NCBI GenBank assembly: GCA_905178155.1
Contig: CAJINV010000010.1
Span: 2,472,466 to 2,536,465, forward strand
Direction: 5' to 3'
Source of the DNA: Amoebophrya sp. A120
Taxonomy: Eukaryota > Protista > Dinoflagellata
Length of the DNA: 64,000 nt
Positions within the stretch are counted from its first letter, which is position 1. Each line of letters starts with the position of its first letter. Position numbers and translations under genes: made by a program. Below are positions 218 to 51,300 of the stretch, piece after piece. Under the pieces are notes generated by a model. The model did not search any database. It saw only the letters and a list, made by a program, of their open reading frames with translations, and was not told the origin of the DNA.

Positions 218-700
218 TGTCTGGTGAGACGGGGTTGAAATTAAACCCCGGCCAGACATTATTTTCCGCTCCGGTGACCCGTTTCGGTCACTGATTAGGG
301 GCTTTATTTCATCTGGTGAGACAGGGTTGAGATTAAACCCTGGCCAGATAGTTTATTGGTTTTGTCCGGTGAGACGGGGTTGAAATTAAACCCCGGCTGG
401 ACGTGTTATTGCGAGCCCTGACCCGTTTCGGTCAGCGATTCTGGCTTCGCTTTGTCTGGTGAGACGGGGTGGGAATTATACCCCGGCCAGACTTATTATC
501 TTCCGCCCCGGTGACCCGTTTCGGTCACTGATTCCGGGCTTTATTTTATCTGGTGAGACAGGGTTGAGATTAAACCCGGGCCAGATGTTTTATTGAGATT
601 GTCCGGTGAGACGGGGTTGAAATTAAACCCCGGCTGGGCGTGTTATTGCGAGCCCTGATCCATTTCGGTCAGAGATTCTGGCGGCGCTTTGTCTGGTGAT
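218..700 (+). repeat. Tandem array (~236-bp period, 2 copies plus a stub) of covarying stem-loops
   Basis: Six large hairpins of the form (G/A)TC(T/C)GG-TGAGA-C(G/A)GGGT(T/G)-loop-ACCC(C/T)G-G-C(C/T)(A/G)GA start at ~219, 311, 364, 454, 548 and 601. Four small TGACC-CGTTTC-GGTCA hairpins lie between them. Copy offsets are 235-237 bp. Confidence 0.85.
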
Positions 701-3520: not shown

Positions 3521-4101
3521 ACGTCTCCTTCGCCAGGGCGGCGGCCCGGGGGCGTCTCCTTCGCCAGGATTACTAACGGAGCAAGGGTAGAAGTAGAGCG
3601 CCCCTCGCCCTTCACCCGAGAAACCTGAGCGATCGTGGTCTCAAGTCATTTCAAGCCGGCCGACCGGATCCGCGAAATGACGGCCTGCGCTCTTATTTGT
3701 GCACTAGAATTAGATAAAAGAAAGCCGCCCGGCTCGCGTTGGGCAATCGCCTCGCAAGAAGTGCCTGCGATTTGTTTCGATCCGCACCACCAAGGAACGC
3801 TACGGGCCGCGGTTCCTCAGATAGTCGAGAGGCCCTCTCGGTTCGTTCGTGTCCTCGCAATAGTCTCCAAGAAGAAGAACAGTTTCAGAGTGCATTCGCG
3901 ATAAGAATATTAGTGGAGATGTTTCGGAGCTGGTCTGGAGTGAGTGAGCTTCTTGATGGAGTCCCCCTTGGCAATCGAAGTTGAGTGCAAAACGTCTTTC
4001 GCACGTGGCAACCCTTCACGCAGTCGCTTTCAGACCGTAGTAGGAACTTTTTTTTTCTCGTTGCAAGAGCACTGTTATACTGATCCCCCGCAGCCCACAC
4101 C

Positions 4102-7100
4102 ATGATCGCTTTCCGCGCGGACCCGCTGGAGCTTCTCTTCGGGAACGAGAACAGAAATCACACCGCCGCTTCGAAGCGTAGTGAGAGTTTATTTGGGAAC
4201 AACCGCGGCGGCGCTCCTTCCGATCAGGCGTTCTTTCGCCGGGCGCGGAGCAAGAGAAGCAGCGCAATCGGACAACGATCGCACCACGCGCAGCAAGGAC
4301 CACTTACGGATGAGGAAAGCTGCTTGTCTGTCGAAGCCACCACCAATGCCGGGCCGACGGGATCCGACAAGCCACGAACGCGAATTTTTTCCAAGAGAAA
4401 TCGCGAGTCGGTTGTCTATGTACTCGGGGACGCGGAACAAGAAGGAGAGGACAGCGCGGGCTACTTCGCTGCGGAAGACGGCGGTGAGAACGGAGTAGAA
4501 TTCCGGATCAACAAGAACCGAGCATCCTCAAGCAGCAATTCCACCAGTTACCAATCTTCTGAGTCTCCGCGCACAGACATCCAGGTCCCCTCGGTACTAT
4601 CTTCGGAAGACGATCGTCTGTGGAGTTTGGGCAACGGTTTCTCCGTGGTGAATGGCAACTCCGCGTTTTATTTTCCGACCAGCGGTAGCGTTCGCGGGCC
4701 GCGGCGCCGCCAAACTCCCGTTCGCGGATTCCTTCGCGCGCCGGAGCGTGTACTACTAGTTGAATCTTCCTCCTCCGACCGTGGAGACGGGAAAATGCAG
4801 ATCTTCTCTGACAAAAGCCAAACGGATATGGTCTCCTCCGGCTCGGCAAAGGAAGCTGAGCAGAGATCAGCCCCGGTTTCGGTGTTGCCAAGATCCGCAC
4901 AAGGCATCGTCGAGGGATCATGCGACGTGGACCTACTTTCATCTGCGCATCAAGAAAGCCTCAGCGAGCTCCGAGTGCCGGGGGCCGTTGCGGAACGTGG
5001 TCAGAGCACTAGCGGGTTCTTGGGAAACGACGAAAAAGCCGACAAAAGGCAACAACCCAAGTCGCGATCCTCCACGACAAGCACGACGGCGAGCGAGCAA
5101 GATGTAGACCGCAGCGTGGAAAATTTGCGAGGAGACGGGCCGCGGTTTGGTGCCACGTCAGGTATTATTAGCCCAGAGGTCGTCGTTCCAGGGGATTTCA
5201 AAACTACGGCAGGACCGACGACGACCTGTGCGTCCTGCCCGGACGAGGTGGACCTCCTTCCCGACCCGCTGTGGTTTCATATTTTTCTCTATCTCCCGGC
5301 GTCCGACTGGGTTTCGCTGTCGGCAACGAACGGCTTTTTTTACCAACTCGCGGTGACGGCGCAGGACCTGCTGGCGGCCCGGATCTCCCCGCTGCAGTTG
5401 GTGCCGAGTAGGAACAATATGGGACGAGCTGGAGGACCTGCGCCGGGTGAGCAGCATCCCTGGAGGGGTTGTGCAGCTGTGGAAGTAGATGCAAGCCTTG
5501 ATGTTAATACGAGGACACCAGGCAAGAGTACTAACTTCGCACCGGAACAACTAAGTTTATACTCTTTGCAGCGACTGGCGCGGCTGGAAGAGTGCTACGT
5601 CTTCGACGTTTTCGACCAGGTCGGGGAACCCGACTCGCAGAGGAAAGTATCCGTGGACTTCCGTGGCGACGAGGCCATTCAAGGTGTGAAGGACTTGGTG
5701 GTAAAGCACGTCCAGCACTACACTAGCAGCAGCAGCGGCCGAGGACAGGATGCTGAAACACCAGCGTCGGAGGTCGCGGACGGGAAGATCGGCTCCGGGC
5801 TTTTTGCGGGCGCGGAAGGAGGTGCGCAGTTCTGCATCCAGAGATGGAACCAGTTTCGTGCCTGGTGCCAGACGGTCGAGTGGATCGACCGGCACGCGCT
5901 GCTGGGGAACACGGCGGCGAGCGCGGCCGGGAGAGGGATTGAGAGGCTCGTCGATAAAGTAGAGAACGAACAAACGCGGGGGCCCACAGAGGAGAAGCTG
6001 TCGGGGTGTGCGACGAAAATGACGTTCTTGCCGGCGTCGTCTTCCTCGTCTTCAACTGCATGCCTGCGTTCAGCCACCTCGAGACGTTCTGGTACTGTAA
6101 GCCCTACTTCCGCGGTCGGAGAAAGCCACGAGGGAACGAAGCACAGTCATCTCTCGTCTTCGGGACAAGAAAAAGCGTTTGTTTCACCGCAACATAAACA
6201 GAGACGCACCACCCGAGAAATGACTGCAGCTACCACAACTACCGAGGACGAAATTTTCCCGCTGCACCTCCCGCCCCAGCCGCGCACTTCGTTCCTCCGG
6301 CTGCCCCTCACCCCGCGGTGCGAGTACTTCCGCCGAGTCGGACTTCCGGCCGGGGTCCTTCCGGGGCGGATCAGCGTGCGGTTCCGGCTGCAGAATTTGT
6401 TCGCGGAGGAGCGGGAGGACGGCGACCGCGGGCTCCTTCCGGCCGAAGACCACCAGCGCGGGTTGTTCACCTGCGTGTGGCGGAGCGGGGGCGCGACGGA
6501 AGTCGGCAAACTGGAGTTCCGCAACAAGCATCGTCAAGTCTTCGCGAGCATCGGGCTCCGCCGCCCGTGGCTGAAGCGGTTCGCCAAACCACGGGGAAAG
6601 GGCAGTATCTGGGGACGAAAAGCCTTTGCTTTACCGCGACTGCCCTCGATGCCGTTTCGTACGATATTAACCCGGTGCAGTAATTCTTGTGCAACGGAGA
6701 TGAAGAACCCCAACAATAAAGCAGCAACTGGTGCGGCCAGTACTATCGAAGCAGCGGCCGGGAATGGTGGAAGTAAGAATGACTCTTCCTCCGAGGGACG
6801 AGAACAACAAGAACCGGGTTATCATGATGAAGAAGCTGCTGGTACTGGTGCGCCGTCCTCGTGCGCAGACACGGATTCGTCCACCAGCGACGAGGAGCCA
6901 GACGTGACGGCGACGAAGCAGGCGTTTTTTCTGGACGTCAAGCAGTACGCGAACTTCCACTGCCGGGTGCCCGACGTGCGAAACCCCGCCGGCCCCTGGC
7001 AGGACCACTTCACAAATGACCTGCTGCTGGAGGGAACGGCCCAGCTGGAAATCACGGAGGCAGAGGAAAAGGATTGGATCGATGTGGATTTTATAAGATA

Positions 7101-7443
7101 CGATGATTTTTACGGTGCTCCGTATTTTTCGGAAGATGATGATGATGCGCGTGGTTCTTATCATCCGACGTGTACAACTACTTCTACTTCCGCACGTGGT
7201 AGTTTGTCCAAGCCCGCGTTGCAGATCTGGTGCAATAAGATGCTGGTCGCTGGCGTCTCGACGAAAGAGGCGTTCAAAAAGGTGGAGAAGCGGTTGAAGA
7301 GCCGCGTCCACCACCGCTTGGAGACCGACCTAGAAACGGTGGAGTTGCGAGGCGGCGCCGCTCCAGACCCGCAGGGACAGCAAGCGAGCCGGGCGTGCAG
7401 CGTGAATTTTGACTTGCAACACATTTTGTATGCGAGAAAGTAG
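4102..7443 (+). CDS. F-box domain-containing protein (1113 aa, single exon)
   Basis: Uninterrupted 3.3-kb ORF. LLPDPLWFHIFLYLPASDWVSLSATNGFFYQLA (~5254-5352) matches the F-box pattern LP.E....IF.YL....L..LS..C..F..L. The rest is largely Ser/Thr-rich low complexity. Confidence 0.75.
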   Translation: MIAFRADPLELLFGNENRNHTAASKRSESLFGNNRGGAPSDQAFFRRARSKRSSAIGQRSHHAQQGPLTDEESCLSVEATTNAGPTGSDKPRTRIFSKRNRESVVYVLGDAEQEGEDSAGYFAAEDGGENGVEFRINKNRASSSSNSTSYQSSESPRTDIQVPSVLSSEDDRLWSLGNGFSVVNGNSAFYFPTSGSVRGPRRRQTPVRGFLRAPERVLLVESSSSDRGDGKMQIFSDKSQTDMVSSGSAKEAEQRSAPVSVLPRSAQGIVEGSCDVDLLSSAHQESLSELRVPGAVAERGQSTSGFLGNDEKADKRQQPKSRSSTTSTTASEQDVDRSVENLRGDGPRFGATSGIISPEVVVPGDFKTTAGPTTTCASCPDEVDLLPDPLWFHIFLYLPASDWVSLSATNGFFYQLAVTAQDLLAARISPLQLVPSRNNMGRAGGPAPGEQHPWRGCAAVEVDASLDVNTRTPGKSTNFAPEQLSLYSLQRLARLEECYVFDVFDQVGEPDSQRKVSVDFRGDEAIQGVKDLVVKHVQHYTSSSSGRGQDAETPASEVADGKIGSGLFAGAEGGAQFCIQRWNQFRAWCQTVEWIDRHALLGNTAASAAGRGIERLVDKVENEQTRGPTEEKLSGCATKMTFLPASSSSSSTACLRSATSRRSGTVSPTSAVGESHEGTKHSHLSSSGQEKAFVSPQHKQRRTTREMTAATTTTEDEIFPLHLPPQPRTSFLRLPLTPRCEYFRRVGLPAGVLPGRISVRFRLQNLFAEEREDGDRGLLPAEDHQRGLFTCVWRSGGATEVGKLEFRNKHRQVFASIGLRRPWLKRFAKPRGKGSIWGRKAFALPRLPSMPFRTILTRCSNSCATEMKNPNNKAATGAASTIEAAAGNGGSKNDSSSEGREQQEPGYHDEEAAGTGAPSSCADTDSSTSDEEPDVTATKQAFFLDVKQYANFHCRVPDVRNPAGPWQDHFTNDLLLEGTAQLEITEAEEKDWIDVDFIRYDDFYGAPYFSEDDDDARGSYHPTCTTTSTSARGSLSKPALQIWCNKMLVAGVSTKEAFKKVEKRLKSRVHHRLETDLETVELRGGAAPDPQGQQASRACSVNFDLQHILYARK

Positions 7444-14641: not shown

Positions 14642-15394
14642 GGCGAAGCGGTGCCCTCGGCCGTCGTTCGTTTTGAAGTCTTCTTGACGCTGAAATTATT
14701 TTTTCCCATTTGGTCGTGTTGAAACTGAAAGTAAGTACACACTCGACGAGCAATCTACCAAAAGCGATCAGCATGTTCGTCTTGCAGCGCAACGTTGCAA
14801 TAATTATCAGCCGCGCGGCCGTGGTCCGTGTTGGCAAATGTTCTGACACTACTTGCAATTTACATTTGGCACTACTCGCAATGTCCGTCTCCTGCGTGGC
14901 TTGCGTCGGTTCTTTGGAATGTCTTTTTTTTGTAACGAGAAGCGGTCGTATCGCTATCGGTTCTGTATCGTAGAACAGCAAAAGCTGTAAGTCGGTTGAT
15001 ACTAGCCATTCGTACAAAACTTTTTCGGAAAAATAACGAGGATTTTCGTTCAAGGAACCGACAACGACATCCGTAACATCGGATAGAGTCGTGGAACATC
15101 GTACAAAAGGGCACAGCGAACCATCGTACTACGTCGCGGTCGTGCAAAGAAGTAAGGATTTTTACAGACGATCGACCGCGTACATGTTCATCCGCTTGCC
15201 TTTGAATTCGAAATCCGCATGTGGACGACTCCCTTACTACCCAAATGTGATGTTGAACCCCATTTGATGTTCGGACCGTGACCATTTTCACTTTTTCCAC
15301 TCGATTCCACCTTGTACTTGATTGTGCTGTGAAACTCAACCTAGGCAAACGAATCGGAAAAGTTTTTTCCAAAACCAACCCCCAAACTCGCAAA

Positions 15395-15502
15395 ATGGCG
15401 AAGATGATGAAGATGATGAAGGCCGCCGAGCCGGCCCCGGCCATGAAGAAGATGATGAAGATGTCCATGAAGATGAAGATGATGTCCATGAAGAAGAAGT
15501 AA
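15395..15502 (+). CDS. 35-aa Met/Lys-rich basic micro-protein, copy 1 (MAKMMKMMKAAEPAPAMKKMMKMSMKMKMMSMKKK)
   Basis: ATG in CAAAATGG context. The coding sequence is identical to 25641-25748 while the flanks diverge. The composition resembles the MK-rich N-termini of dinoflagellate DVNP nucleoproteins (inference only). Confidence 0.7.
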   Translation: MAKMMKMMKAAEPAPAMKKMMKMSMKMKMMSMKKK

Positions 15503-15576
15503 GTGGGTTTTATTTACAACCCGCTGCGGACGACACTCTTCAGTATGACGCCATTCTAGAGTGAGACGTCGGAGAA

Positions 15577-15863: not shown

Positions 15864-16277
15864 TCAACACGGCAAGAGAAGACACAGAATTCGAATCGCT
15901 GTAGCATCTACAAGATTTGAAACTCAGTTTTTTTTGCCCTCGAAGAGATTACGCTTTACATAAGAAAAAAAAAGAATGCTTTTTGCCTGCTCAGGCACAG
16001 TTGGTGCCGGATTTCGGTTGCGAGAGGTTTAGCGTCCTCTGTGTTCTGGAAGTTCGTGTTACGCATATACTCTTGCGAATTGCAGCCCTCTCTGCCACCC
16101 ACAAACGTCGATCTTCTATGTCGCATGTGAGGAGAGGTCGCATGTGATGTGATTACACTGATGTGAGTTGAAAAAGATGTAACGCTGTCGCTGTCCTTGT
16201 CCCTCCTCTCGTGTTTCCTACCTGCTGCCGCTGCTGCTGTCCTTGCTGTACTTTTCCGATTTTAGCCTACGCGACCG

Positions 16278-16700: not shown

Positions 16701-17215
16701 CATGCAGAGAAAATTTTGTCATGCAGAGCTCCCAAAACTTGGAGACTTGTGTTGCTAGATTCCCAACTTGACTATGGGAGGGGGATGTTTTTGTTTAGGA
16801 TAGAGGTTTTCTGTGTTCTGGAAGTTCGTGTTACGCATATACTCTTGCAGAGCAAAGAACAGTTTTTCTGCTTTTTGTCGGAGAGGAGAACGGTACTTTC
16901 GTACTCGCACGTCCTACCTCTGTAGTAACCTGTGTTTCTTTTTGAGGTTTTTACAGTATCGCCCAACCAGCTCTTTGAGTGGTGGAAATGCCAAGTGCAA
17001 TCTTTATATCCGCGGGCCGCGTGACGTTTCATTCTAGTCCACTTGGGCGGCCACTACTAACTTCTAGATCCAAAAGGCAAGGGCCGCAGTGTTTTGGTAG
17101 GCGTTTATTCCGCAGTGCAATTTTCAAAGATGTTTTGGTAGTCGGTGGGGGCCACGCGGGTAGTAGCGGTTTAATATTTATATTTTCGCCAAATCGAAAC
17201 AAAAGTTGAAAAGCC

Positions 17216-21459: not shown

Positions 21460-24400
21460 ATGACTACGCGCGCCGGCAAACTTGGTTCTTGTTCTGCGGT
21501 CCTCTTCCTACTCAGTGCCGCGACTGCGGTTCTGGGTCAGGGCGCCCCCGACTTTCAGACGGTTCTCGGCGGATTTTACACCGATCCCAACCACTACAAA
21601 CCGGGCACGCTGTATGATGCAAGAAGAAAAACTGTGTCAGTGTAGATTTGTGTTGCAGATTACTCGAAAAACCGTAATTAGCGGCTAAGTTGGTACGGCC
21701 CACAGAACAAGAGCAAGCGAATGAAACTTTTTCCGCACGACTGCTAGCTCCTGCATTCTCCGACTTCCCGAGCTAAGTGCTGCAGGATTTCTCTCCTTCT
21801 GCTTTTTCCCTGGGGAAAAAACCGCGCGCGTCCGTACTTGAGATTTTGCGTTTTATTCACTCGATGACGATGATGCGCAAATGCAAAAACTGTGAGGCAT
21901 AAGTTCCCTAATGGCGCGTGCCATTAGGGAACTTATGTTTTTGCATTTTCGAAAAACATAAGTTCCCTATTGGCACGTGCAACTAGGGAACTTATGGCTC
22001 GAGATTTTGGGTTTTTCTTTTTTTTCACTCCATCCTGCGAAAAGAAAACGCAAAAACTCTGAGGCATAAGTTCCCCAATGGCACGTGCCATTAGGGAACT
22101 TATGTTTTTGCATTTTCGAAAAACATAAGTTCCCTATTGGCACGTGCAACTAGGGAACTTATGGCTCGAGATTTTGGGTTTTTTTCACTCGATGATGCGC
22201 AAGTGGAAATGCAAAAACTCTGAAGCATAAGTTCCCTAATGGCGCGGGCCTTTAGGGAGCTTATGTTTTTGCATTTTCGAAAAGCATAGAAATAGATATC
22301 CTATTTGAGTGCGTAAATAGGAAGCTAGTCCTTTGATGAAGCTTTGGTTTTTTTCCGCAAAGGGAGCGCTTTGAAGCTTTGGCTTTTTTCCGCAAGAATA
22401 GAAAGGGAGCGCCTCGCCCTGGTGCAAGGGTTTTCATTTCTGCTCGTGTCATGGGGACCACGCACGGCGCGACGCAATAGCTTTCTTGTTTTGTGGCTCG
22501 GAAAGAGTTACCACTTTAGCCGCTTATTACGGTATGCCGAGTATGCGAGAGACGCTTACATTTGTCATGCTGGATAAGTAGTATGTGTTGCCACACGCTG
22601 TTTTTTTTGCATAGGTGCAGCTTTGCAGCCCCGTGCTTCCTACGCATGACAAGTTTTTTCTCTCCATACGCTGGAAGGTATCCGGTTGATGGGCTTTCCC
22701 GCCACGCCCGGTTCTAGCGAATTCGCCTTCACGGGGTCCGACGACTATCCAATGTAAAACGTCCCTACGAGGACCCCGGAGTTGTCATGCAGATTTGCAA
22801 TTACAGGAACAGTTGTTATGCGCATCCCCATGAGCAGAGGCATTTCCAGTCGTGTTTCGGCACTTGGAATGCTCCAAATAGAATGAGGAAATGTGATTGT
22901 GATGCGGCTGTCCTTGATGAACTGCACTTCTGCAGTACATAGTACAGAGAAGAACTTGTTGAATCATGCGTGACTCGTCCCAAAACTTCTTCTGGACTTG
23001 TGTTGCCAAGTTAGTACGTAGTCTCCAACATCTTGACTATGGGGTCCTCGTGGGGACGTTTTATTTACACAGGATAACGACGGGGCGAAATTTTGGAAGG
23101 CGAGCGGCAAGATTTTGGACATATCAACTGTAAAAATGTCTGGGTCTGGAAGAATGTATGTTTGTCATGCTTGTCTGGCATGACTGTATAAATCTGTCAT
23201 GCACGTTACCCAAGAGCTCTATTTTTCTGTGATGCAGAAACGCAGTTTGTCATGCAGAATAGGCAACACCTAGAAGCTCAGAAACTTGTCATGCTGAGCC
23301 AGCACTTGTGGCCTCATCATGAGACGCCACCCAGCATCACAAGTTTCCAGACCCAGACATTTTTACATTTGGTAGGACAGCGCGGAGTGGGAAACGAAGA
23401 AGCTGGTCATATCAACTGAAAATATGTCTGGTTCGGGAAGATTGCCAGGTTTGTCATGCAGGTTTCGGATCATGCCCCAGAAGGTCTGGAATACGGGTCT
23501 AGCATCACAAATCTACTTGAGAAGGCTTCTGAATGCCTAATCCGCATGACAGATTCCCTGTTTCGGTCACAAGAAATGGGCAACCTTTGCTGTCCATGCA
23601 TGAAAGATTTTCGTGTGATGTGAAATGCGCATCACAAGTTTGCATCTTTTCAAACCCAGACATAATTTTGCAATGCATAGGTCAAACTGCAAACGAACTT
23701 CCATGAGAAGGGCGCGCCGGCCGATTATCACACAGAAAAAAGCAGGCAGGGCATATTTGTTTTGCGAAATTGAAATTATAGCAGAAAAATTTGTCATGGG
23801 CGAGCTTGTAGCGTGCGGTTTATGATATGCAATACAGATTTTTTTGCTTTTTAATTTTTGAATTACAAATCTGACCTGCCTTTTTTTTTCTGTGGGATAC
23901 CGATTTTGCAGAGTTCAAGGGAACGTTTGACGGGGTCACCTATCAAAAGCAAAAATCCCCCCTCCCCATATCACAACGGAAATCTGTGATGCGGGACTTG
24001 TGTACACAAATCACATCTGTCTTGCAGTGAGGCACTGCAGGCAAAGCCCAAGCCTGTGCAGGGGTGCTTTGGCGTAGGTGCTTAGCATAGCAGAGGCCTT
24101 CCATGTATCCGTAACAGCATTGCGAATCGCCTGTATAAGTCGGCGGATTCTTTTGATCTACCCCCTTGCAAGAGAGACAGGGTTTGCGGTCACAAATCAG
24201 CATGACAACTTTTTAGGAGCATACATTTTCAGTATGGGGAGGGGGGATTTTTCCTCACAATATCACCGGAAGAATCACCTGGCAGGACGGCAATGCCTGG
24301 GTCCGGCAGAAGGAAGTGAGTTTGGACTTCGCGGGAGGGAGCAGTGGCGCGGGCTCGAGTACGGATGCTACTGCTGCTGCTGCTGCTGCAACTTTGGCTG

Positions 24401-24471: not shown

Positions 24472-25640
24472 TGCAAGACAAAGAACTAGAACCCGATCAA
24501 CAGCACGGAAAAGATACAAGGAGAACAACAGTATTAGTAATTACGACCGAAGACAATGTCTCTAGCGAGCGCGCTTCTCTACCCATCTCAGCGTGCTTTT
24601 CTTTGATTCGTACTCGAGCAGGACCCTAAACCTCATGCACGCCTTCCCAGTGCAGGATAGATGATGATGATGATGATACGAATCGTCGCGACGTACGACC
24701 ATGAAGAATTGAATCTTCTTCCGACGCATATCATCTACATCAGGTCCGTTTCCCGAGGGCATGTTGGTGGGCGTTTGCTTAGCGTTGATTGTTGCCGGGT
24801 TTTTGTACTGGCGGCTGGAGAGGGGAAACAAGGCGCTGGATTAGAATTATGGTGCTCAATCAAAGATACTCACAACCGCGAATGAGCAGTCGTTTTATAT
24901 CAGAGTGAAAATTACGATGCTGGTGTAGGAGCAATAATCGTATCCACTTCTGAGTCTCGCAGATTGATGCAGGTAGGGTATGTCGCGTAGCTCTCATCTG
25001 ACCACGCAGTCGCTGTTTTGTTCATCGGAGATCATTTTCATCGATGCGCAGCACCCACTCTACACAGTTTCGGTTGCACAGCTGCGTGCTGCCATCGCAG
25101 TTATTATGTACTTTTCAATATCGGTTTGCCTTTGCCTTGCCAATTAAAAATATAAACCCTTCGTACAACTTGCTCGAATCGGCTTTCGGTCTTGCTCCCC
25201 GTCGCAGCTGCACTCGGTAGTTTCAAATACACAATCGTTGACAAAGTTGGAAAGCACGCCGTTGCATTTTTTCGTACTTTCACCACGTTTGAAAAAAGCG
25301 GCGATTCGTAAAAGGGTGTAACTAAGATCGTTTGATGAACCCTCGTGCAAACATTGAGAAAAATCGTTAGAGTCATCAAAAACGTCGAACCTGAAGGAAG
25401 AACCAATCGCATGAAAATTTTCTTTTCTATACGCTCGTCCCGCGCACCAAACTGAACCTCGCATGGTCCCCCCCTTTTGCTCTACTCGATGCTTTGACCC
25501 CGATCCATTTTCTCCACCTTGTTCCACGACCCTTGCTGACCACATTGAATTCATCTTTTGTTTCGCAAAACTATATCCGAATCTAGGCACAACAAAAAAT
25601 CGGAAAAGTTTTTTCCAAAACAAACCCCCGAACTCCCAAA

Positions 25641-25748
25641 ATGGCGAAGATGATGAAGATGATGAAGGCCGCCGAGCCGGCCCCGGCCATGAAGAAGATG
25701 ATGAAGATGTCCATGAAGATGAAGATGATGTCCATGAAGAAGAAGTAA
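25641..25748 (+). CDS. 35-aa Met/Lys-rich basic micro-protein, copy 2
   Basis: Identical to 15395-15502. It shares ~45 nt of 5' leader (AATCGGAAAAGTTTTTTCCAAAA...CAAAATG) and the downstream stem-loop. Confidence 0.7.
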   Translation: MAKMMKMMKAAEPAPAMKKMMKMSMKMKMMSMKKK

Positions 25749-26472
25749 GTGGCCAACGGACGGGCTGCTCGCTTTTCTGGACGAAATGACATCAATCTAA
25801 AATATGTCATCAACATCTAGCGCTCCCGGTTGTAGTGTAAGTCTGCAGCGGTCGAGCGAATGCTAGAATGAAAACTTTTCCAATGGCACGACATTGACTC
25901 ATTTATGTAGGCACGCTACAGAATGACGTTGTTGCAAGTGACCTGAAGAAAAGAACAAGAAAACTACTACGTCAGCACAGTGCTGTGTCAGCGCGCGGCA
26001 GCGTTGTAGTCCTGTGGAAGAACAACGACTCAGAGACTGGTGACAAACAAGCTCCTTGCCGCATTTTGTTCGTTTTGTTTCTTCAAGGAGGATCCCAAAT
26101 TGAAATTTCATATCAGCGTGATTTTACTAGTAGCTGCGCGTCGGCGGCATCAGGTCTATAGCTGTTTCTTTTTTGGTCGAAGGATGGAAGATCTGCAACA
26201 CTGCACACCGTTCAGAATCGATTCGTGCCGTTTGAGGCGAGCTCAAAAGGAGAAATTTTTACACACTGTGCGAAAAAAAATATCGCAATAAATGGTTCTT
26301 ATTTTCGTAAATTCATTCGCGAATGTCGGACCGGGCTTTGGAGTGCAAACGCTTGTATGGCAGGCTTTGGAGTGCAAACGCTTGTATGGCAAAACATTTT
26401 CTGGTTGTATGCTTCAAGACTATAAGTAGATATTAGTACAAGATCTCACTAGGGCTCGCGGCGCTTTTCGGT

Positions 26473-29400: not shown

Positions 29401-32400
29401 CGGTGACTCTGGCTCTTTATCAAAAGGAAAAATCCCCCCTCCCCATATCGAAAGGACATCCATCCGAAAATTTGTGATGCAGATTTGTGGCCACAAATCC
29501 TGTCTGTCTTGCAAGCAGCGGCATTCACGCTGTCCGCCACGTTATGCAGGCGATTTGTAATGCTGTAAGGCCTACAGGGTAGCCGTCTACCATGCTAGAG
29601 GCCTACACCAAAAGGCTCCTACCTAGGCTTAAGATCTGCGCGCAGTCCTCTACTGCAACACAAATCTGCTCTGTGTACTCAAATCCAGCAGCAGAAATTT
29701 CGTTTTGATATGGGGAGGGGGGATTTTTTCTTACAATACTCTTGTAGTGGTGTTTCATTTCCTGCTGGCGCGAGGACCCTGCAGTTGTTGTTGTTGGCGT
29801 ACTAGAGCGACGAGAAATTATTGCGCGGAAGAGAACTACGATGATGAAAACGGCGCCTGTATAAGTTCTAGTTCCGGCGGCCAAGTAGAAGGACCAGCGG
29901 ATGATAATTTGCTACTCGGACCACGAACAAAAGGCGCAGGTGCACCAGCAGCCGATCCAGCACTGCAAGAGTCTGGCAGTGCACCACCACCAGGGGCGGA
30001 CCACGACAGTACAGGACGACCGGCCCCCGCTACAACAAGAACTACTACGGCAAGCACTATCCGCCCACCAGCCCCGGTTGCAGCCGCCGCCGGGAAAATA
30101 CTAACGAAGATCCGATTTGATAAAAAACGCCGGCGGTTCGTTCGGGTGCACGGGTGCCTCCAAAGGCAGCAGAAGCAGACAAAAAAGGAGCGGAAGATTT
30201 TATTTCCGAATAGTACTTCATCTAAAGCGGTGACGGGTTGTAAAAGTAAAGATGCACTTGTTCCTCGTCCCGCCCGGCCCGCGCCACCGCAGCCGGTGTT
30301 TCGCACCGCCGAACACGCGCCCGCTCGGGTCCGGGTCTATGAGGCTCTGGAGCGAGGTTCCGGGGGGCCGGCGCGCGGACGCTGCTTCGAGATTATCAAA
30401 TGCAAATATGTCTGGGTCTGGAAGGTTGGAAGACTTGTCATGCAGGTTTTCCACGACGCGTGAGGTCTGTCATACATGACCCAGCATGACAGATTCTCCC
30501 CGACCTCTATCATGCCTCGTCTGCATGAGAAACCCCCTCTCAGCCTGGTCAAAAGTGGACAGCTTTTGGTAATCACGCAACACAGATTTTTGCACTATCC
30601 AGAATTAGCATGACAAGTTGCCTTCTTCCAGACCCACACATATTTGCAATGCATAGAGATCCGGATGGCGCAAGACGATCCGGAAGTTTTGCCGGCGGAA
30701 ACGCTGGCCGCGAAAAGGAGATTACTGAAGCAGGAGCAGAAGTGGCAGTATCAAATGTAAAAATGTCTGGGTCTGGAAGAGTGCATGTTTGTCATGCTTG
30801 TCTGGCATGATTCTCAAATCTGTCATGCACGTTACCCAAGAACGCCATTTTTCTGTCATGCAGAAACGCAGTTTGTCATGCAGAATAGGCAACTACACCT
30901 AGAAGCTCAAAACTTGTCATGCTGAAACAGCACTTGTGGCCTGCTCATGATATGCCACCCAGCATCACAAGTTTCCAGACCCAGACACTTTTGCAGTTGA
31001 TAGGCAGGAAAGTCGAGCAAGAACTCCCGGTGCAGCCGCGAGGACCATCCTGTTATCCTGTGCAAAAGTATCGTATTCGTATTGCAATCATGCATTACAA
31101 ATTTTCTTGTTAAGTCAAATCCGCATTACAAATTTTATTTCTAATGCTAAGGAAATTTGTAATGCATTTATACGAGTACGATACTTTTGCAATCCATACC
31201 TGTGGCAGCCGCACGAATTGGTGCAATTCCAGTCGGTATGGATTGCAAATCTGTCTGGGTCTGGAAAGTTGTGATGCTAAAATGCGCATGACGAAAACGC
31301 TCCCTCATGCAGGAGAGCATGACAAGTTATTCGCAGAACGCTTCCTCATACGCGCTCCGCATGAGAAACTGCGTTTTTGTATGACAAGCGAGGCTGTGAC
31401 TTTTGTGGGTCATGCAATACAGATCTCACAGGAATGCAAGACCAGCATTACAAGTTCCAACTTTCCAGACCCAGACATTTTTGCATTTGATAGTCGGTGC
31501 GCCCGGGCCAGTACGCGCGTGCGCTCAGCCTGGTGGACCAGGATCAGGAAGCGCTGCAGGAGGCCTGGCAGCACCTCTGCCAGCTGCAAGGGGCCGTTTC
31601 CGTGGTCGACCACGGGGACGAGAGCTTCGTCGGCCACGTGGGCGGGGGCGAAGAGATTTATGGTTCCCAGTGGTCAGATATGAATTGCAAATATGTCTGG
31701 GTCTGGAAATCTGTGATGCTGAATTGAGCATGATTGAAGCGCTTTCAATGGCAGCCAGGCATGACAAGTTTTAGAGGCGCCTGCTGATGCCTACCACGCA
31801 ACACAAATTGCGTTTTTGCATGACAAAGCAAGCTCCTCTTTTGCTGCTCATGCAACAGAGATTTTCCAGGAATGCAAGACACGCATCACAAGTTCCACTG
31901 TTCCAGACCCAGACATTTTTGCATTTGATATCAGAGCCGAGATCTATTTCTCGCGGAGGTGGTGTAATTGCTGTCGAGAACAGTGGTTGTAGTACTAGGA
32001 CTAGCCCCCGCGGCTGCCGGGGGAACACGAAGAGCACTATCCTGAGTAAAAACGTCCCCACACCAGAGTCAAGGTGGAAAATCTGCTAGACAAATCTGTC
32101 AGCTTTTGCTGTTGCGCATGACAAGTTTGGCATCGTGGTGTAATCCTGTTTAGCTAGTTCAGAAGCATTACAGATGAAGCATATCATGCTGATTCTAGCA
32201 TGACAAGTTCCCAAATACGAATAGAAAATGCTTCTTATGGGGCTCCGCATGACAAACGTTTTTGGCATGCAGATTTGCATTACAACTCTGGGGTGGGGAC
32301 GTTTTTACAAATGATAAGCACTGCGTCTACTTCATCGACGATCAGGGACGATGTGGAAGTAGTGGGTGGCGATGACGAGCAGAGCAAGCAGCCTGTGTTT

Positions 32401-32484
32401 GTGGAAGAGAAGCGTACAGCTCCCGCTGCAGTGGATCCTGTAGGCAGAAGTAGTTGTACCTCTGAAATAATTCAAAACATTTAA
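26473..32484 (+). CDS. DUF4116-repeat membrane protein, 12 coding segments; true start uncertain; one in-frame TAG at 28651
   Basis: Typical repeats ALQGVSEACRDNFYIVLEAV, LQFASARLRDEEELVRTAL, LEFASERLQ, FAAPHLRADRELGLEAVQRCGRALQF and a TM segment ILAWAVTGVACLLGVAAVTLALVVVF. The frame is continuous after removing introners starting at 27572, 27918, 28140, 28685, 29418, 30394, 30749, 31054, 31237, 31679 and 32038. Confidence 0.7.
27918..28126. mobile_element. Introner family F and relatives (representative; ~175-240 bp)
   Basis: TIR TAT(G/C)CAAGAAAAAAACTGTGTAAGTGTAA. Copies at 21613, 55069, 56424 and 60375. Related minor families start at 23726, 44336, 45719, 55303 and 63239. Confidence 0.85.
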
Positions 32485-32794
32485 TTGGCCTAGGGGGTAA
32501 AGTCAATGAAAAAGAAAATGAAATAAAGCGCCCACCTCATATAGTCTGATAATCGTTTTCTTTTCACGATAGTTGTATATTTATTGTCATTCTCAATTTC
32601 TAGTAACGCGAAGAAGAAGTTTGCGCTATACGACCCCAAAGAATTCTTGACGGATCATAGATAGTTGTACCCCTAGTATTTGATAAGCTTCCCATGATCA
32701 TGTTTTGACGTTTTGCTCCGCCATTCCAGTGATATACCAGTCGATTTGTAGTATAGAGTCAGTCCGAAGTAAAAGTAAATTCGCGTGCACGACC

Positions 32795-33748
32795 ATTTGT
32801 AGTCGGTAATCAATCGTTGCGTTCGGGCCCGGGGGGGCGACAGCCCCCCCGCCCCCCCGGGCCCGGCGAACCCGCTTCCCATTTGCGAAGCAAGGAAGCG
32901 ACGGCGGATGACCTTACGGGGGATCTAGATGGAACAAAGGGGCGCCCCCCAAAGTGGGGCAGTAGCATCGAGGGAAGGGCTTGCTAAGCTGGAACCGGGG
33001 TCGGCCGCGTGGGCGGCCAAAAGGTGCGCCAAAAACGCAGCCTCCCACCGGGGGAAGGTGCAAAAATGACGATTTTTGCGTCCATAGGCGCATTGGTATC
33101 CGAAAAATGCGAGTTTTTTTATGTCGCGAATCCCCCCGGTACGCTTGCGAAAAAGTAGCGAACTTGGGCCCTCCGTGGGTCCGCAGTAGCATCGTCTTTC
33201 GCAAGAAAAAATTGAAAAAATGAAAAAAAAATCGCCCATTTGTAATGGGCCTTGCGCTCAATCCGAAATTTGTCTTGCCGCCAAACACGGCGGCACGCTG
33301 AAAACTTAGTCAGCGTATAGTCGTGTTTAGAGGTGTAACGTTTTGCCATTTCCGGGACGGAGGCCTCCGCCTGATCAAGCGGAACAGCATCGCGTTTGAG
33401 GTGCAAAAGCGCCCTCCGCAAAAATGCAAAAAATGAACGAAAAAAAGCCGACACGAAAATGAGCAAAAATCACGCGCCCGCCATACCGTGCGGGGTAACA
33501 TTAGGCGCGACGGTATGGCGCGCCAAAATTTTTGGATTCTCGCGCGACCGCCCCCGCGCAGCCCGTGCACCGCCCGACCCGCCCCTTGAGGGGGCGGCCG
33601 AACCCGAGCCCGGCCCTCGGCTCAAGAAGAAGGCTTTGCGCCTCCCGTTTTCGCGCGGCCGCCGAAATGCGCGCGTCGCGATTTTTGCTTTGCAACACGA
33701 AGAACGCAACGATTGATTACCGTATCGCCCGACCGGGCGCGGAATTCA
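32795..33748 (+). mobile_element. Non-autonomous insertion with subterminal IR and 3' hairpin, flanked by a 43-bp direct repeat
   Basis: Direct repeat 32752-32794 = 33749-33791. Perfect 21-bp IR at 32804-32824/33702-33722. Terminal TATCGCCCGACCGGGCGCG..TTCA. A-tract-rich interior with no credible ORF. Confidence 0.75.
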
Positions 33749-34474
33749 TATAGAGTCAGTCCGAAGTAAAAGTAAATTCGCGTGCACGACCTATGTGAGT
33801 AGTTTGTTTGTTAGTACATACACATGGCAGTAAACATAGTATGAGAGGACCATCATGGGAAGAGCTGCAAGACCGTGCATCGCACGAGACGAAGTGAGAA
33901 CAATCTTTGCTGCATCAAGGAGCCGCTGCATTCTAGAAGGCTGTGTAAAATAGAGAAGAAGATGAACTACCAGTTGCTTTATCCCAGCCTCACGATAGTA
34001 CTGTTCGCAAATGCCCTCGGTTTTATGCATCTGATAGTACGCCCCTATGTTTATCGGTACGACTTCTCGGTGATCAAGATGATCTACGGTGTGTTTAATA
34101 GGTACTTAACACGCCAGCTCCTTCAAGCTCATCATCGGTCGGGCCTGGAACTGGGTTCCTGCGACATCATTTCGGAAAATTTCTGTGTCGAGTCTGTCTC
34201 CTCGTGACATGATTCCTCAATCGGTTCATCGATAGTAGAGACTCGGTTCTGCAAAAACTCTTGTATTCAGCGACTCGGTTTGCCTTGTCACAACACGGAT
34301 AGATGACGTCCTGTGGAATGTCTTGTATTTGTATTAGTTTGATGTTCAATAATGTCGGTGTGTTGATCTTCTGTAGCTCATGCATAGATAATTGTGATAC
34401 TGCTTCTGGTCTCTATCGACGACTTCAATTCGCGTTGCAAAGCGTATAATTCGCGCGTTATAAAAAATCTGAAT

Positions 34475-35401
34475 CGACGCAAACGCAGCGCGAAGGCTTT
34501 GCCGTTACCATATGGGAGGAACTCGGGGGTATGCAATCACTCGCAAAGTCGGGCATGTCCAATGCGGTTTTGCCGCCAGAGAGTGGATTTCGGAGAAGTT
34601 GGCTCATTTTTTGAAAAAGTAGAGAAATCTGCGCAGGCAGATCGGGGAGAAGGTTAAAAAAAGGACTTTTCCGGCTCCGCCCGATCTGATTCCGAAGAAA
34701 GAAGCCCGATGATTGGACGGCGCCCGATGCTATGGCGCGTTTGGTAGCAGAAATTGCGTCACGTGCAGGCCGCCGCGGCCGATCTGTATCCAAAAAAAAG
34801 AACAAGGAAAAACGCACTTTTTTACAGAATATAATGGGCCCAAAAAATCGACCGATTTTGTGCAGTGCCCAAAAGCCGATAGACATCCAAAATACAGCTT
34901 TTTTTGGAAAAATGCAACACCCGATCTGAAATGGCCGGTAAAAGACGGCTTTTGAATTTGTCACAGGCTTAATGCCGTCGTGATTGAAGGAAAAAAATCG
35001 CGTGTAGATCCTGCGGGGGTGTGTCACACGAGCACGATTCTCGTCCTCTCGGAGGTTCAAAGCGGAACCCCTTCCCCCGACTGGAAATGGCCGATTTGGG
35101 CGGCCTTAAAGGGCCGCCGAAAATGACAAAAATTGTGGAACTTTTTGAAATTTGCGTATTTCTGCTGGATAGCATGCCCTCGTGCATAAGATTATGCGCG
35201 GCGGAGTGCTGCTTGCCAAAAAACGCAGTCTTTTGCGCGCCCTTGCTTCCTGGTTAGAGGATGAGAGCGCGGCCCGAAGCGGGCTGCAGTGTTGGACCGC
35301 GGCCCTAACCAGGAAGTCAAGGGATGCGCGGTAGCCTTCGCACTGACTGGGGTGGTTCGCACGCTTTTGGTTACCAATATCGCCCTCCGGGCGCGACCTT
35401 C
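34475..35401 (+). mobile_element. Related non-autonomous insertion flanked by a ~72-78 bp direct repeat
   Basis: Direct repeat 34397-34474 ~ 35402-35473. It has the same terminal motif TTACC..TATCGCCCTCCGGGCGCG..TTCA as the 32.8 kb element. Confidence 0.7.
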
Positions 35402-36314
35402 ATACTGCTCTCTATCGACGACTTCAATTCGCGTTGCAAAGCGTATAATTCGCGCGTTATAAAAGATCTGAATGATCTCGTTCTCGACAGTCCACTCTTT
35501 TTACGCACAATATACTGTAACACTCATGTAAAATTTTCCCTCCGTTTATGGTCCTCTTGCATCGGGCCGCCCAGCATGTGGGCCCCCCTCGCCCGTTGGA
35601 CTAAAATGAAATTGATGATTCAATATTTATTTTTACACACCTCCACGACCCTACAAACATTCATCCCTCACTTGATGAAGATGCGCTCTTGCTGCAGGTC
35701 GTGGCCAGTGGTTTCTTACTGATTGATATCAATTGCAAATATGTCTTGGTCTGGAAACTTGTGATGCAAGTCAGGGATCAATGCGCGCACTGCAATTTTC
35801 TGCCAAGCATGACAAGTTTTCCGTGGTTCTGAGTTGCGTACTCTGCATGAGAAACCTCGTTTTTGCATGTGAGGCGAGGGAAGCTCTTTGCGGCCACGCA
35901 ATACAGAGCTCAGAGTCCTGCGAGACGCGCACGACAAGTCTCGCAACCTTCCAGAGCCAGACATTTTTGCATTTGATACTCCTCTCCTGCAGGCCGCGGC
36001 GCGACAGGCGGGAAATCTACCGCTTCTTTCCATGGCAAGGAGAAGTCGTGTCACTTAAAAAAAAATGTGAAGAAGTACAAGCTGGTCTTCTTCTATGGAG
36101 AGAAAAAAGCTTGTCATAGTCACTGGCTTGCAGTTTTTGCATGAGAAATTTTTTATGCATCACAGGTTTTTCTTGTATTGCACAACTACATAGAGATGAA
36201 ATCCCATATAAAATTAGACTGTGATGCAATTTTACGCATGACAGAAATTTTTGTATTGCAAAAATGCGCATGAGTGATCGTGACGAACTTTTTTTGTTCC
36301 ATATCTTCAGCAAG

Positions 36315-48300: not shown

Positions 48301-51300
48301 ATGTTTCTCATGCGGAGCCCCATGAGAAGCATTGTCTAGTCGTGTTTTGGAATTTGTCATGCCAGAATCAGCACGATATACTAGCTCTGTGATGCTGCTG
48401 AACTAGTACCTCAAACAGCACTACACTACGAGTCCAAATTTGTCATGCAAAACAGACAAAACTTGTGGACTTGTCTAGCCGATTCTCCATCTTGACTATG
48501 GTCGTGTGGGGACAGTTTTACTCAGGATATCGCAACGGAGGAAGTCACTTGGAAGCTGGTCCGGTATAGGAACAGCTCAACAGCGGTAGTAAATGATCCA
48601 GAGTTTTTATCCTCTACCCCGCCGCTGCCACCGCAGCAAAATTACACCAGTCGCGGTCGTCCAAGTGGTGCAGCTGGCCACGACTCGAGTACTTCTGTTG
48701 TAAGTTCCCTGGTAGTGACCTACACGCGGGGGCACCGACTGCATGTCGTGAAAGGGGACGCACGGAAAAAACAGTACGGCCGCGCAAATGCGACCTTGTA
48801 TATCTCGCTGGCGCTCGAGTTTCTGCTCCTTCCTGAGGACACGGCTATCAAATGTAAAAATGTCTGGGTCTGGAAACTTGTGATGCATGTCAGTGAACAG
48901 AAAGCGCCTTGTAATGCACCGCCAAGCATGACAGATTTTCTCGTGGCTCTCTGTTGCGTATTCCGCATGAGAAGCATCGTTTTTGCATGACAGACAAGAG
49001 GAGGTCTTCCGATGGCCCTACGCAATACAGAATTCACAGTCATGCCAAACTAGCATGAGAAATCTCGAAATCTTCCAGACCCAGAATTTTTGCAATCCAT
49101 AACGACTAGGAGGGAGCGATCATCGGCCCTTTCGACCACTAGTACACCTACGGATAATTTGGACGCCAGCCTTAGCAGCACAACTGGAGGCCCTAGCAGC
49201 GGAGAAGTTGTAAGAGCCCCCTTGCCGTTAGAGATATGAGAGTGCTGCACAACTCCCCCTCGTCCTCCTCATTTGTCATGCAAAATACCAATGGATCCAA
49301 GGTTTGTTCTCCAGCACTGTTTGCATCACAAGCTCTGGCAAGGAATGCCCAAATAGAAGTACACTTTTGCGCGGCAAGTAATTTGTCATGCAAAACCTGC
49401 GTTCCTGCTCACGCTTGTATTGCTGCGTATGCCATATTACAAAAGAGGGGGACGAGGGGGAGTAGTTGTGCACTCTCATAAGAGAATAGCCGACTGTGGC
49501 TGGATCGGGTGTGGCTGGAGCGGCGTTTCGCGGACGTTGAGCGGGACAGGACGACAGAAGCATTATTTTGAGTAAAAACGTCCATACCCCAGAGGTGTCA
49601 TGCAAATCTGCGTGCCAAAAAAGTTTCTCATGCGGAGACCGCCCATGAGATGCATTCTCTAGTCGTGTTTTGGAATTTGTGATGCGATAATCGGCGTGAT
49701 GTGTTAGATCTGTGATGCTGCTGAGCTACCTAGTATGTAGTGAGGTCACCGAACGGTTCTAACCAGGGAGTTTTTTTGACAGCTCCCGTGAAAAACGACC
49801 GGCAGTTTTCAAGCGACCGGAAGTGTTTTTGCACATAAAAAACTTGCAATTATCAAGCGGCCGGGGCGTTTGCGGCAAAAAAGCCCGAGCGGATTCTATC
49901 GATTCGCACTGGATAAAACGACGCAGAGGAGCCGGCAAAAGGGGCGCCCTTCTGAGGCGCCCGCCGCCTTGGTTTCTGGCGATTTGGGGCGCCCAAAAAG
50001 GGGCGCGCAAAAAACGCGCCCAAAATCAGAACAGCGAAACAGCATGGCACGGCCGCGATTTCGGAGCATTTTGGGCGGCCGCGAAAGCGGCCGCCTTTTC
50101 GCCGGTTTTAGAGCCTGGGAAGCTTTGCAAAAAGCGCCGGCGTGAAAAATAAAAACGCGAAAAAGAAAAAGCGCCCCAGACGCGCAAAGCCAATCCGAAT
50201 GCTATGGGCCCGATTTTTCTTCGCTTTTTGGGCGCCCCCCGTGGCACCCGGATCGGCCCCATAGCATGGGGGCTGGCCTTCGGAAAGGAATTTCGGGAAT
50301 TTGCCAAAATTTGCGATGTTTATCAAGCGGCCGCCATACCGTGCGGCCTAACGTTACTCACGGCGGTATGGCGAGCCCAGAAAAAGCAAAGCCGCGGCCA
50401 AGGCGATGGCCGGCAAGAAAACGCCCACGACCTCACTACCTCCGCCCCGGCGGCTATATTTGGTAAAAAGGACTTCTACACTACGGGGACAGAGGACTTG
50501 TCATGCGAAACAACCACAGCTGGTTGATTTGTCGGCAGATTTCATCCCATCTTGACTCCGGTCGTGTGGGGACGTTTTTACTCAGGATAAGAAGAAGACA
50601 AAATTTTGACGCGCGTTTATCGAGAACAAAAATCCCCCCTCCCCATATCAAAACGGAAATCTGTGATGCAGATTTGTGGCCACAAATCAGCTTTGTGATG
50701 CTAGAAGGCAAAAGATGCGGACTGTAGTGCTACCTAGCATGGGAAAGTATTGCATCTCCAGCATGACACGAGGCAACTGGAAGTGGGAAACAGCATGACA
50801 AATTGCCTGCAATTCAGGCCACAACTGCGTCGCTTGGCCTTCTAGCAATACAAGTCGATTTGTGTACTCAAATACAGCATCACAAATTTCGTTTCCGATA
50901 TGGGGAGGGGGGATTTTTCTTCTTGATAGCGTTGTCCCGCCACCGTGGCGGGTGCTGTTCTTGCAGCCGCGAGCCCTTTCCGCACGGGACGACCATATCA
51001 ACTGCAAAAATGTCTGGGTCTGGAAGATTGGCAGATATGTCATGCTTGTCTGGCATGACCAAAAAGTTTGTGATGCGTGTCCAAGAAGAGACCCTTTTGC
51101 CTGTCATGCAAAAACGCAGCTTTTCATGCGAAAAACGGAACACAAAGAAGCGCAGATATTTCTCATGCTTGCCTGTGCATTTCAGAGCAACCACTATTTC
51201 CAACGCAACATTACAAGTTTCCAGACCCAGACACTTTTGCAGTTGATAGACCAGTTTCGGCAGCAAAATCTGGACCCCGATCGCAGCGCGGTGCTGGCCA

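What the first reader, a model, noticed from the sequence alone, without database searches (positions are those of the whole stretch)
32752..35473. Two adjacent ~0.95-kb insertions with 43-bp and ~75-bp target duplications and a shared 3' hairpin terminus
Seen: the interiors differ, but both end TTACC-(G/AA)-TATCGCCC-(GA/T)-CCGGGCGCG-NNN-TTCA directly before the duplicated target, which can be read as starting TA. The first has a perfect 21-bp asymmetric subterminal IR. Known: subterminal IR plus 3' hairpin is Helentron-like, but those elements make no TSD, and DDE transposons make TSDs of only about 2-15 bp. Inference: this may be an undescribed non-autonomous element class, mobilised either by TPRT with widely staggered nicks or by an HUH-type enzyme.
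Basis: partly seen in the sequence, partly recalled or inferred. Interest (0 to 1): 0.7.

Follow-up and report, generated by a model that had tools for sequence, protein, structure and literature searches.

The report
Helitron2-like insertions with long target duplications
These are two real, gene-less jumping elements in a protist genome that have the end structure of Helitron2 rolling-circle transposons, and their long flanking duplications, a quirk already published for a green alga, likely come from repair of a two-strand break at the landing site rather than from a new class of element.

Summary
Both inserts end in the same hairpin terminus, joined exactly to a TA. A scan found 8 more copies in one other assembly. 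Of 7 copies with both ends readable, 3 are full-length with no duplication and 4 carry 34–77 bp duplications; three of those four lack the 5' end. Complete copies have a 21-bp asymmetric inverted repeat (1–2 nt from the 5' end, about 26 nt from the 3' end) and hairpins at both ends. Six of 7 targets read TNATA. This is the Helitron2 anatomy. Variable duplications (up to 443 bp) around 5'-truncated Helitron2 copies are published for Chlamydomonas, so the premise that such elements make none is wrong. New here: a second lineage (an introner-rich genome that earlier scan notes call Amoebophrya A120), elements without Fanzor, and a locus (32744–33791) whose duplication includes 8 nt upstream of the junction, pointing to exact joining first and break repair second. 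The transposase was not found (no genome held), so membership is unproven. The scan noted Helitron2-like elements, without duplications, in another dinoflagellate before.

The parts
32744..32751 (+). 8 nt of host DNA just upstream of insertion site 1; copied again at 32795-32802
   Evidence: 32744-32752 is identical to 32795-32803
32752..32794 (+). Duplication 1, first copy (43 bp, begins TA)
32795..32802 (+). Re-copied upstream flank, joined to the complete 5' end of element 1; no microhomology at the junction with the first copy
32803..33748 (+). Element 1 (family A), 946 nt, full-length, non-coding; the terminal T can be placed at either end
   Evidence: 90% identical over 886 columns to L007; two of its ORFs scanned had no Pfam match
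32804..32824 (+). 5' arm of the 21-bp asymmetric inverted repeat, 1 nt from the 5' end
32824..32865 (+). 5' GC hairpin, 16-bp stem
   Evidence: z -4.8 and -3.7
33702..33722 (+). 3' arm of the inverted repeat, ending 26 nt before the 3' end
33726..33739 (+). 3' subterminal hairpin of element 1 (5-bp stem, 4-nt loop)
33749..33791 (+). Duplication 1, second copy
34398..34474 (+). Duplication 2, first copy (77 nt, begins TA, preceded by TGA)
34475..35402 (+). Element 2 (family B), 928 nt, lacks about 60 nt of the 5' end including the 5' inverted-repeat arm
   Evidence: 87% identical over 415 columns to full-length L006; alignment; two ORFs overlapping it had no Pfam match
35356..35376 (+). 3' arm of the family-B inverted repeat (its partner is lost in this copy; present in L001, L003, L006)
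35381..35393 (+). 3' subterminal hairpin of element 2 (same 5-bp stem, 3-nt loop)
35403..35473 (+). Duplication 2, second copy (71 nt; 6-nt deletion and 1 substitution against the first)
49731..50463 (+). Third element of like build (11-bp asymmetric inverted repeat about 49737-49747 / 50429-50439, short 3' hairpin), inserted before TA inside an introner-like repeat with no duplication; ends uncertain by about 2 nt
   Evidence: shares 56 bp at 82% with element 1

Best explanation
Both inserts are non-coding, multi-copy elements with Helitron2-type ends that are likely moved by a rolling-circle RepHel transposase supplied from elsewhere in the genome, and their long duplications likely arise when host repair resolves an insertion that has been cut on both strands. 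Shown: the hairpin (3') end is joined exactly to a TA in 10 of 10 copies; the target reads TNATA in 6 of 7; complete copies can insert with no duplication (3 of 4); copies lacking the 5' end carry 34-77 bp duplications (3 of 3); at locus 1 a complete element sits inside a 51-bp tandem duplication reaching 8 nt upstream and 43 nt downstream of the junction. Inferred: the transposase joins one strand, hairpin end first; if the other end is finished cleanly there is no duplication; if the opposite strand is cut tens of bases away, or the joining of the 5' end fails, the staggered ends are filled in and end-joined, which duplicates the target and often costs the 5' end. Which strand is inserted and which nuclease makes the second cut are unknown.
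For: Inverted-repeat geometry matches the Helitron2 definition (5' arm 0-2 nt from the end, 3' arm 20-30 nt from the end and upstream of a hairpin; PMC3627910): 1-2 nt and 26 nt in W1, L001, L003, 25 nt for a 12-bp core in L006. The arms of families A and B differ at 12 of 21 ungapped positions yet each pair is 21/21 complementary in W1, L001, L003. 5' hairpins: z -3.7, -3.1, -2.6, -1.4 in W1, L001, L003, L006. The search pattern fixed only the T after the terminus; the next base is A in 8 of 8 loci (window frequency of A after T 0.15). TNATA in 6 of 7 targets against a background of 0.065 equals the TNAT^A target of the Helitron2 elements FoHeli1/2 (PMC5148889). Duplications at L002 (74/71 nt) and L007 (34 nt) score 125 and 68 against shuffled maxima of 24 and 26; L001, L003, L006 stay below their shuffles. 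The same split is published for CRe-1,2,3. Summed contig depth at the family-B 3' end is 18,254 and 34,452 against about 35 and 50 on the unique flanks, and L001 is covered along its whole element in X1 and X2. A Helitron2-like RepHel is on record in the dinoflagellate Symbiodinium (PMC8788227). Tandem duplications from staggered breaks filled in and end-joined are shown in mammalian cells (PMC8355091, abstract).
Against: No RepHel gene was found: no genome is held, and ORFs of 120 aa or more in the window and 8 loci showed no Rep, HUH or Walker A motif. Farhat et al. report two putative transposases in A25 and none in A120, and no paper found names a Helitron in Amoebophrya. The inverted repeat (21 bp) is longer than the published 8-15 bp, and the target is not the TT or TTTT^T typical of Helitron2 and Helentrons. 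The link between truncation and duplication rests on 7 copies and is not significant (Fisher p 0.11-0.14). The 5' boundary of L001, L003 and L006 was placed by me to fit a common target; no empty allele was seen (none among the 9 joints). The break-repair step rests on one locus. A 39-bp direct repeat around 733 bp without this terminus (16038/16810) shows that such duplications can arise here without these elements.
Confidence: 0.72

Rival explanations
1. The elements are moved by another HUH enzyme, such as a Replitron-like Y1 Rep or an undescribed helicase-less Rep, which gives one exact end, one imprecise end and variable duplications.
For: Replitron-1 and -N1 insert beside a dinucleotide in fixed orientation, with one exact end, a fuzzy other end and variable duplications; Replitron-N1 is about 910 bp (PMC10288648). 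No RepHel was found here.
Against: No terminal direct repeat: the last 6 nt do not occur in the first 60 nt in 4 of 4 complete copies. Asymmetric inverted repeats are not described for Replitrons in the parts read. The extra 8 nt at locus 1 come from the element's own target, not from a parent's flank. Craig found no Replitron protein in TSAR clades outside stramenopiles.
Confidence: 0.12
2. The elements are SINE-like RNAs inserted by target-primed reverse transcription with widely spaced nicks, using a LINE of the same genome.
For: Exact 3' end, 5' truncation and variable duplication are hallmarks of this mechanism; Dualen and R9 LINEs make very long duplications (PMC9977147). An RT-encoding LINE lies directly upstream of a family-B 3' part in L005. 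Summed depth is about 4-6 times higher at the 3' than at the 5' end.
Against: No poly-A or simple-repeat tail in 10 of 10 copies. Three complete copies have no duplication. The LINE in L005 ends in its own (CAT)n tail inside the element and its 3' region has no similarity to either family's 3' end (scores 13 and 18). Staggered nicks with one nick at the insertion point cannot duplicate bases upstream of it, as at locus 1. A DNA inverted repeat kept perfect in two families is unexplained.
Confidence: 0.07
3. The elements insert cleanly, and the duplications are unrelated tandem duplications or later repair events at fragile sites.
For: Locus 1 is formally a 51-bp tandem duplication with a clean insertion in one copy. 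Another 39-bp repeat without the terminus exists in the window.
Against: In 4 of 4 duplicated loci the second copy starts exactly at the element's 3' junction, and 2 of 5 readable loci found without regard to duplication have one.
Confidence: 0.07
4. The duplications are assembly artefacts.
For: Only contigs, no long reads, could be laid; no listed piece spans a whole element.
Against: Junctions are bridged by contigs of two studies; the two copies of duplication 2 differ from each other; a separate assembly shows the same pattern at other sites.
Confidence: 0.02

Closest known systems
Non-autonomous Helitron2 families CRe-1, 2, 3 of Chlamydomonas reinhardtii (Bao and Jurka 2013, PMC3627910)
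   Same: Asymmetric inverted repeats at the same offsets, hairpins at both ends, 5' T, intact 3' ends with 5' truncation, no duplication around most complete copies, variable duplications up to hundreds of bases around truncated ones, occasional extra bases between duplication and 5' end.
   Different: CRe elements encode Fanzor1 and these encode nothing recognisable; CRe duplications are mostly 7-19 bp, here 34-77 bp in 4 of 4; target TTTT^ there, TNA^TA here; inverted repeat 8-15 bp there, 21 bp here; the paper's passages do not say where the extra bases come from, here they are the target's own upstream flank.
FoHeli1 and FoHeli2 of Fusarium oxysporum, and Chaetomium Helitron2 elements (PMC5148889)
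   Same: Target TNAT^A (the paper's Fig. 2 legend says TNAT^T, its text TNAT^A), start TC with an ambiguous T, asymmetric inverted repeat, hairpins at the ends.
   Different: They end ATTTT, here TTCA; no duplications reported in the passages read; autonomous copies are known.
Replitron-1 / Replitron-N1 (Craig 2023, PMC10288648)
   Same: Orientation-specific insertion beside a dinucleotide, one exact end, variable duplications, about 0.9-kb non-autonomous form.
   Different: Replitrons have short terminal direct repeats, absent here; their fuzzy end derives from the parent's flank.
Dualen and R9 non-LTR retrotransposons (PMC9977147, passage)
   Same: Very long duplications flanking the insertion.
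   Different: RT-encoding RNA-mediated elements; duplication-free complete copies and asymmetric inverted repeats do not fit.

Membership tests
Helitron2 / HLE2 | 5' inverted-repeat arm 0-2 nt from the 5' end | tested here: met
   1 nt in W1, 2 nt in L001 and L003, 1-2 nt in L006; the 5' boundary of the L loci is inferred from the common target
Helitron2 / HLE2 | [quoted passage not shown] | tested here: met
   26 nt in W1, L001, L003; 25 nt in L006
Helitron2 / HLE2 | Inverted repeat short (8-15 bp in PMC3627910; 12-16 nt in PMC11417382) | tested here: inconclusive
   Present, but 21 bp perfect in W1, L001, L003; 12-bp core plus a shifted 10 bp in L006
Helitron2 / HLE2 | 5' hairpin involving or next to the 5' arm | tested here: met
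   z -3.7, -3.1, -2.6 in 3 of 4 complete copies; -1.4 in L006
Helitron2 / HLE2 | 3' subterminal hairpin | tested here: inconclusive
   5-bp stem with different loops in the two families, but z only -1.2 and -1.7, and the stem was part of the search pattern
Helitron2 / HLE2 | 5' T and T-containing target (usually T^T; TNAT^A in FoHeli1/2) | tested here: met
   All 4 complete copies start with T; TNATA in 6 of 7 targets matches FoHeli1/2, not the usual T^T
Helitron2 / HLE2 | No duplication around complete copies | tested here: met
   3 of 4 complete copies; W1 is the exception
Helitron2 / HLE2 | Autonomous partner encoding RepHel that groups with Helitron2 | not testable with these tools
   No genome held; none in window or 8 loci
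Replitron | Short direct repeats at or near both termini | tested here: not met
   0 of 4 complete copies
Replitron | Y1 Rep transposase without helicase | not testable with these tools
   No genome held
SINE / non-LTR (TPRT) | 3' poly-A or simple-repeat tail, or 3' end shared with a LINE | tested here: not met
   No tail in 10 of 10; no similarity to the one LINE in hand
SINE / non-LTR (TPRT) | Variable duplication with 5' truncation | tested here: met
   W2, L002, L007; but absent around 3 complete copies
DDE TIR transposon / MITE | Symmetric terminal inverted repeats and a short fixed-length duplication | tested here: not met
   Repeat is asymmetric; duplications are 0, 0, 0, 34, 43(+8), about 74, about 77

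The most novel reading that the evidence does not exclude
These families are moved by a transposase not yet recognised in this lineage (a divergent RepHel or another HUH enzyme) together with a second-strand cut made 30-80 bases from the target, with no Fanzor in the element, so that about half of all insertions leave a long duplication. With likely hundreds of copies and loci like 32744-33791 that record both cut positions, this genome would give a direct test of the open question why some HUH transposons make duplications.
Probability: 0.2. Interest if true: 0.68.

Novelty: new member of a known kind. Interest (0 to 1): 0.38.

Why it matters
Craig 2023 (PMC10288648) asks why duplications and fuzzy ends of HUH transposons were seen only in Chlamydomonas reinhardtii and tentatively suggests Fanzor. 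A second, distant lineage with the same signature, in elements with no recognisable gene, would show that it is not a Chlamydomonas oddity. Locus 1 suggests an order of events: exact joining first, staggered break and fill-in second. The family is abundant enough for a genome-wide count. It is not a new class, and the enzyme is not in hand.

Tried and rejected
Whole genome: not held, so no genome-wide count or transposase search. Rfam on 32000-36200: 0 matches at E up to 1. Terminus pattern: 0 in viral contigs, 0 in prokaryote genomes. No RNA holder listed; RNA runs X8 and X9 laid 0 reads on L001, which is no test. Pfam on 16 proteins: only RVT_1 in L005 and a weak F-box in an unrelated window gene. 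The empty site read in six frames gave no ORF above 120 aa. A loose scan for inverted repeat plus 3' hairpin returned element 1 among many chance and introner pairs and missed the third element, so it is no census. Microhomology at the junction of locus 1: none; at W2 and L007 at most 1-3 nt by eye against 87-90% identical relatives, not interpretable. L004's local match above shuffle (score 35 against 21) starts 61 nt downstream of the terminus and matches inside the element, so I did not count it as a duplication. L004, L008 (contig edge) and L005 (LINE inside, 5' part absent) were left out of the count of 7. The joint 32527-35733 has a 21-nt short side in a high-copy repeat end and was not used. 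The LINE in L005 was considered as the partner and rejected (own tail, no shared 3' end). Summed contig depth is not a copy number; I use it only as 'hundreds of times the unique flank'. The 3' over 5' excess may reflect divergent 5' ends.
Full report
Observation. Duplication 1 is 43 bp and identical; duplication 2 is 77 against 71 nt with a 6-nt deletion and one substitution. The shared last 34 nt plus TA align better than any of 19,969 random window pairs. Among exact repeats of 30 bp or more lying 300-3000 apart as two-copy words, the window has 7, of which these are two. Contigs of public runs bridge the junctions at 32643-32835, 33580-33929 (a second study) and 34411-34507; none of 9 listed joints skips an element, so no empty allele was seen, and contigs drop rare variants.

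After the first copy of duplication 1 come 9 nt identical to 32744-32752. Locus 1 therefore reads: flank A (8 nt), B (43 nt), A again, complete element, B again. The element is joined cleanly to A and to B, and the 51-bp stretch AB is duplicated around it, with no microhomology at the B-A junction.

Setting. The window is eukaryotic and packed with short inverted-repeat elements of about 260-330 bp that break reading frames. This fits the introners of Amoebophrya (PMC7789003, passages); earlier scan notes on the same genome name Amoebophrya A120 (unchecked AI notes). No genome is held. The two elements lie in 1,270 nt of AT-richer DNA (GC 0.43) after a stop codon at 32484, with no ORF above 120 aa once they are removed.

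More copies. A pattern for the terminus found 8 loci, all in one assembly of the metagenome collection, none in viral contigs or prokaryote genomes. Two belong with element 1 (family A: L002, L007) and six with element 2 (family B). L007 is 90% identical to element 1 and L006 83-87% identical to element 2. All 8 are followed by TA although the pattern fixed only the T. L001, L003 and L006 are complete (1,466, 1,334, 1,045 nt), with the inverted repeat at both ends and no duplication. L002 and L007 lack the 5' arm and carry duplications of 74/71 and 34 nt that begin exactly at the 3' junction. L004 and L008 run off the contig and L005 is interrupted by a LINE, so 7 of 10 copies were scored. Element 2 lacks about 60 nt against L006, and L007 about 70 nt against element 1. 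The split (complete: 3 clean, 1 duplicated; truncated: 0 clean, 3 duplicated) has p 0.11-0.14, so it is consistent but not significant, and two of the seven were picked for their duplications. The target reads TNATA in 6 of 7 (background 0.065); for the three complete L copies this depends on where I set the 5' end, but 3 of the 4 duplicated loci show it independently. In the window's own organism the family-B 3' end is covered hundreds of times more deeply than unique DNA, interiors much less, as expected for many subfamilies sharing ends; the tool warns that this is no copy number.

A third element in the window. At about 49731-50463 a GC-rich 733-nt insert with an 11-bp asymmetric inverted repeat and a short 3' hairpin interrupts an introner-like repeat; removing it restores alignment to three intact relatives with no duplication. 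It shares 56 bp at 82% with element 1. Its 5' end does not fold above shuffles (z 0.3).

How it likely works. Shown: a fixed hairpin end at TA, clean insertion of complete copies, long variable duplications around most aberrant ones, and one duplication that straddles a clean junction. Inferred from HUH chemistry (PMC10288648): a RepHel transposase in trans joins a single strand to the target, hairpin end first as Bao and Jurka argued for CRe elements; clean finishing leaves no duplication. If the opposite strand is cut tens of bases away, or the far end is not joined, fill-in and end-joining duplicate the stretch between the cuts. Such repair is shown for staggered breaks in mammalian cells (PMC8355091, abstract only). 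At locus 1 the cuts would lie 8 nt upstream and 43 nt downstream of the junction. Which strand is inserted, and whether the second cut comes from an element-encoded nuclease or from the host, cannot be told here.

Comparison. Bao and Jurka 2013 (PMC3627910; abstract, passages of sections 3, 8, 9, and section 15) define Helitron2 by these end features and report variable duplications of 7-19 bp, also 44, 50, 93, 242 and 443 bp, mostly around 5'-truncated CRe copies. FoHeli1/2 share the TNAT^A target (PMC5148889, passages). HELIANO gives T^T as the usual HLE2 target and 12-16 nt repeats (PMC11417382, passages), which these elements do not match exactly. Replitrons (PMC10288648, parts 1-5 of 7; PMC9977147, passages) share the insertion signature but have terminal direct repeats, absent here. 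TPRT is disfavoured by the lack of a tail, the clean complete copies and locus 1; the LINE in L005 (RVT_1, E 3e-10) ends in its own tail inside the element and shares no 3' sequence with it. The elements work like Helitron2; membership awaits the transposase, which I could not search for beyond the window and 8 loci.

Novelty. Searches for Amoebophrya with Helitron (2 papers, 1 listed) and dinoflagellate with Helitron2 (1 paper, a Symbiodinium RepHel, PMC8788227, one passage) found no description of these families. The one supplement of PMC7789003 held has no Helitron hit, and none of the 18 Helitron hits in file 8 of PMC12130899 is in an Amoebophrya row (12 of 14 files searched; main-text passages). 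Searches for variable duplications with Helitrons (listings, of which I read the papers named above) led only to Chlamydomonas. The scan noted Helitron2-like elements without duplications in another dinoflagellate and nothing on Helitrons in this genome.

Verdict. Real, and best read as new non-autonomous Helitron2-like families with a published though rarely seen duplication habit: new member of a known kind, interest 0.38. The value lies in a second lineage for an open question and in one locus that suggests the order of events.

Noticed in passing
window 49731-50463: Third asymmetric-inverted-repeat element, of another family, inserted without duplication before a TA inside an introner-like repeat (about 49567-50590).
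   Followed up: partly
window 16038-16076 and 16810-16848: 39-bp exact direct repeat around 733 nt that holds a 219-codon open frame and a broken introner end, with no family terminus; origin unexplained.
   Followed up: partly
L005 4476-7655 (minus strand): LINE-like ORF of over 1,059 aa with an RT domain and a (CAT)n tail, inserted inside a family-B element.
   Followed up: partly
window 8700-64000: Dozens of 260-330 bp inverted-repeat elements of several families break coding frames; they fit the published Amoebophrya introners.
   Followed up: no
window 15352-15506 and 25598-25752: 155-bp stretch duplicated 10,246 nt apart at 98% identity, with a 21-nt tandem unit.
   Followed up: no
window 217-699, 2815-3500, 21840-22288: Tandem arrays: 237-bp unit, GC-rich 20-40 bp units, and a 167-bp unit with internal palindromes.
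   Followed up: no
window 4084-7443: Uninterrupted 1,119-codon frame with a weak F-box-like match (E 4e-05).
   Followed up: no
L001 about 780-1100: The family-B interior holds roughly 110-bp tandem repeats; internal tandem repeats in Helentron derivatives are recalled and suggested by a listing, not tested.
   Followed up: no
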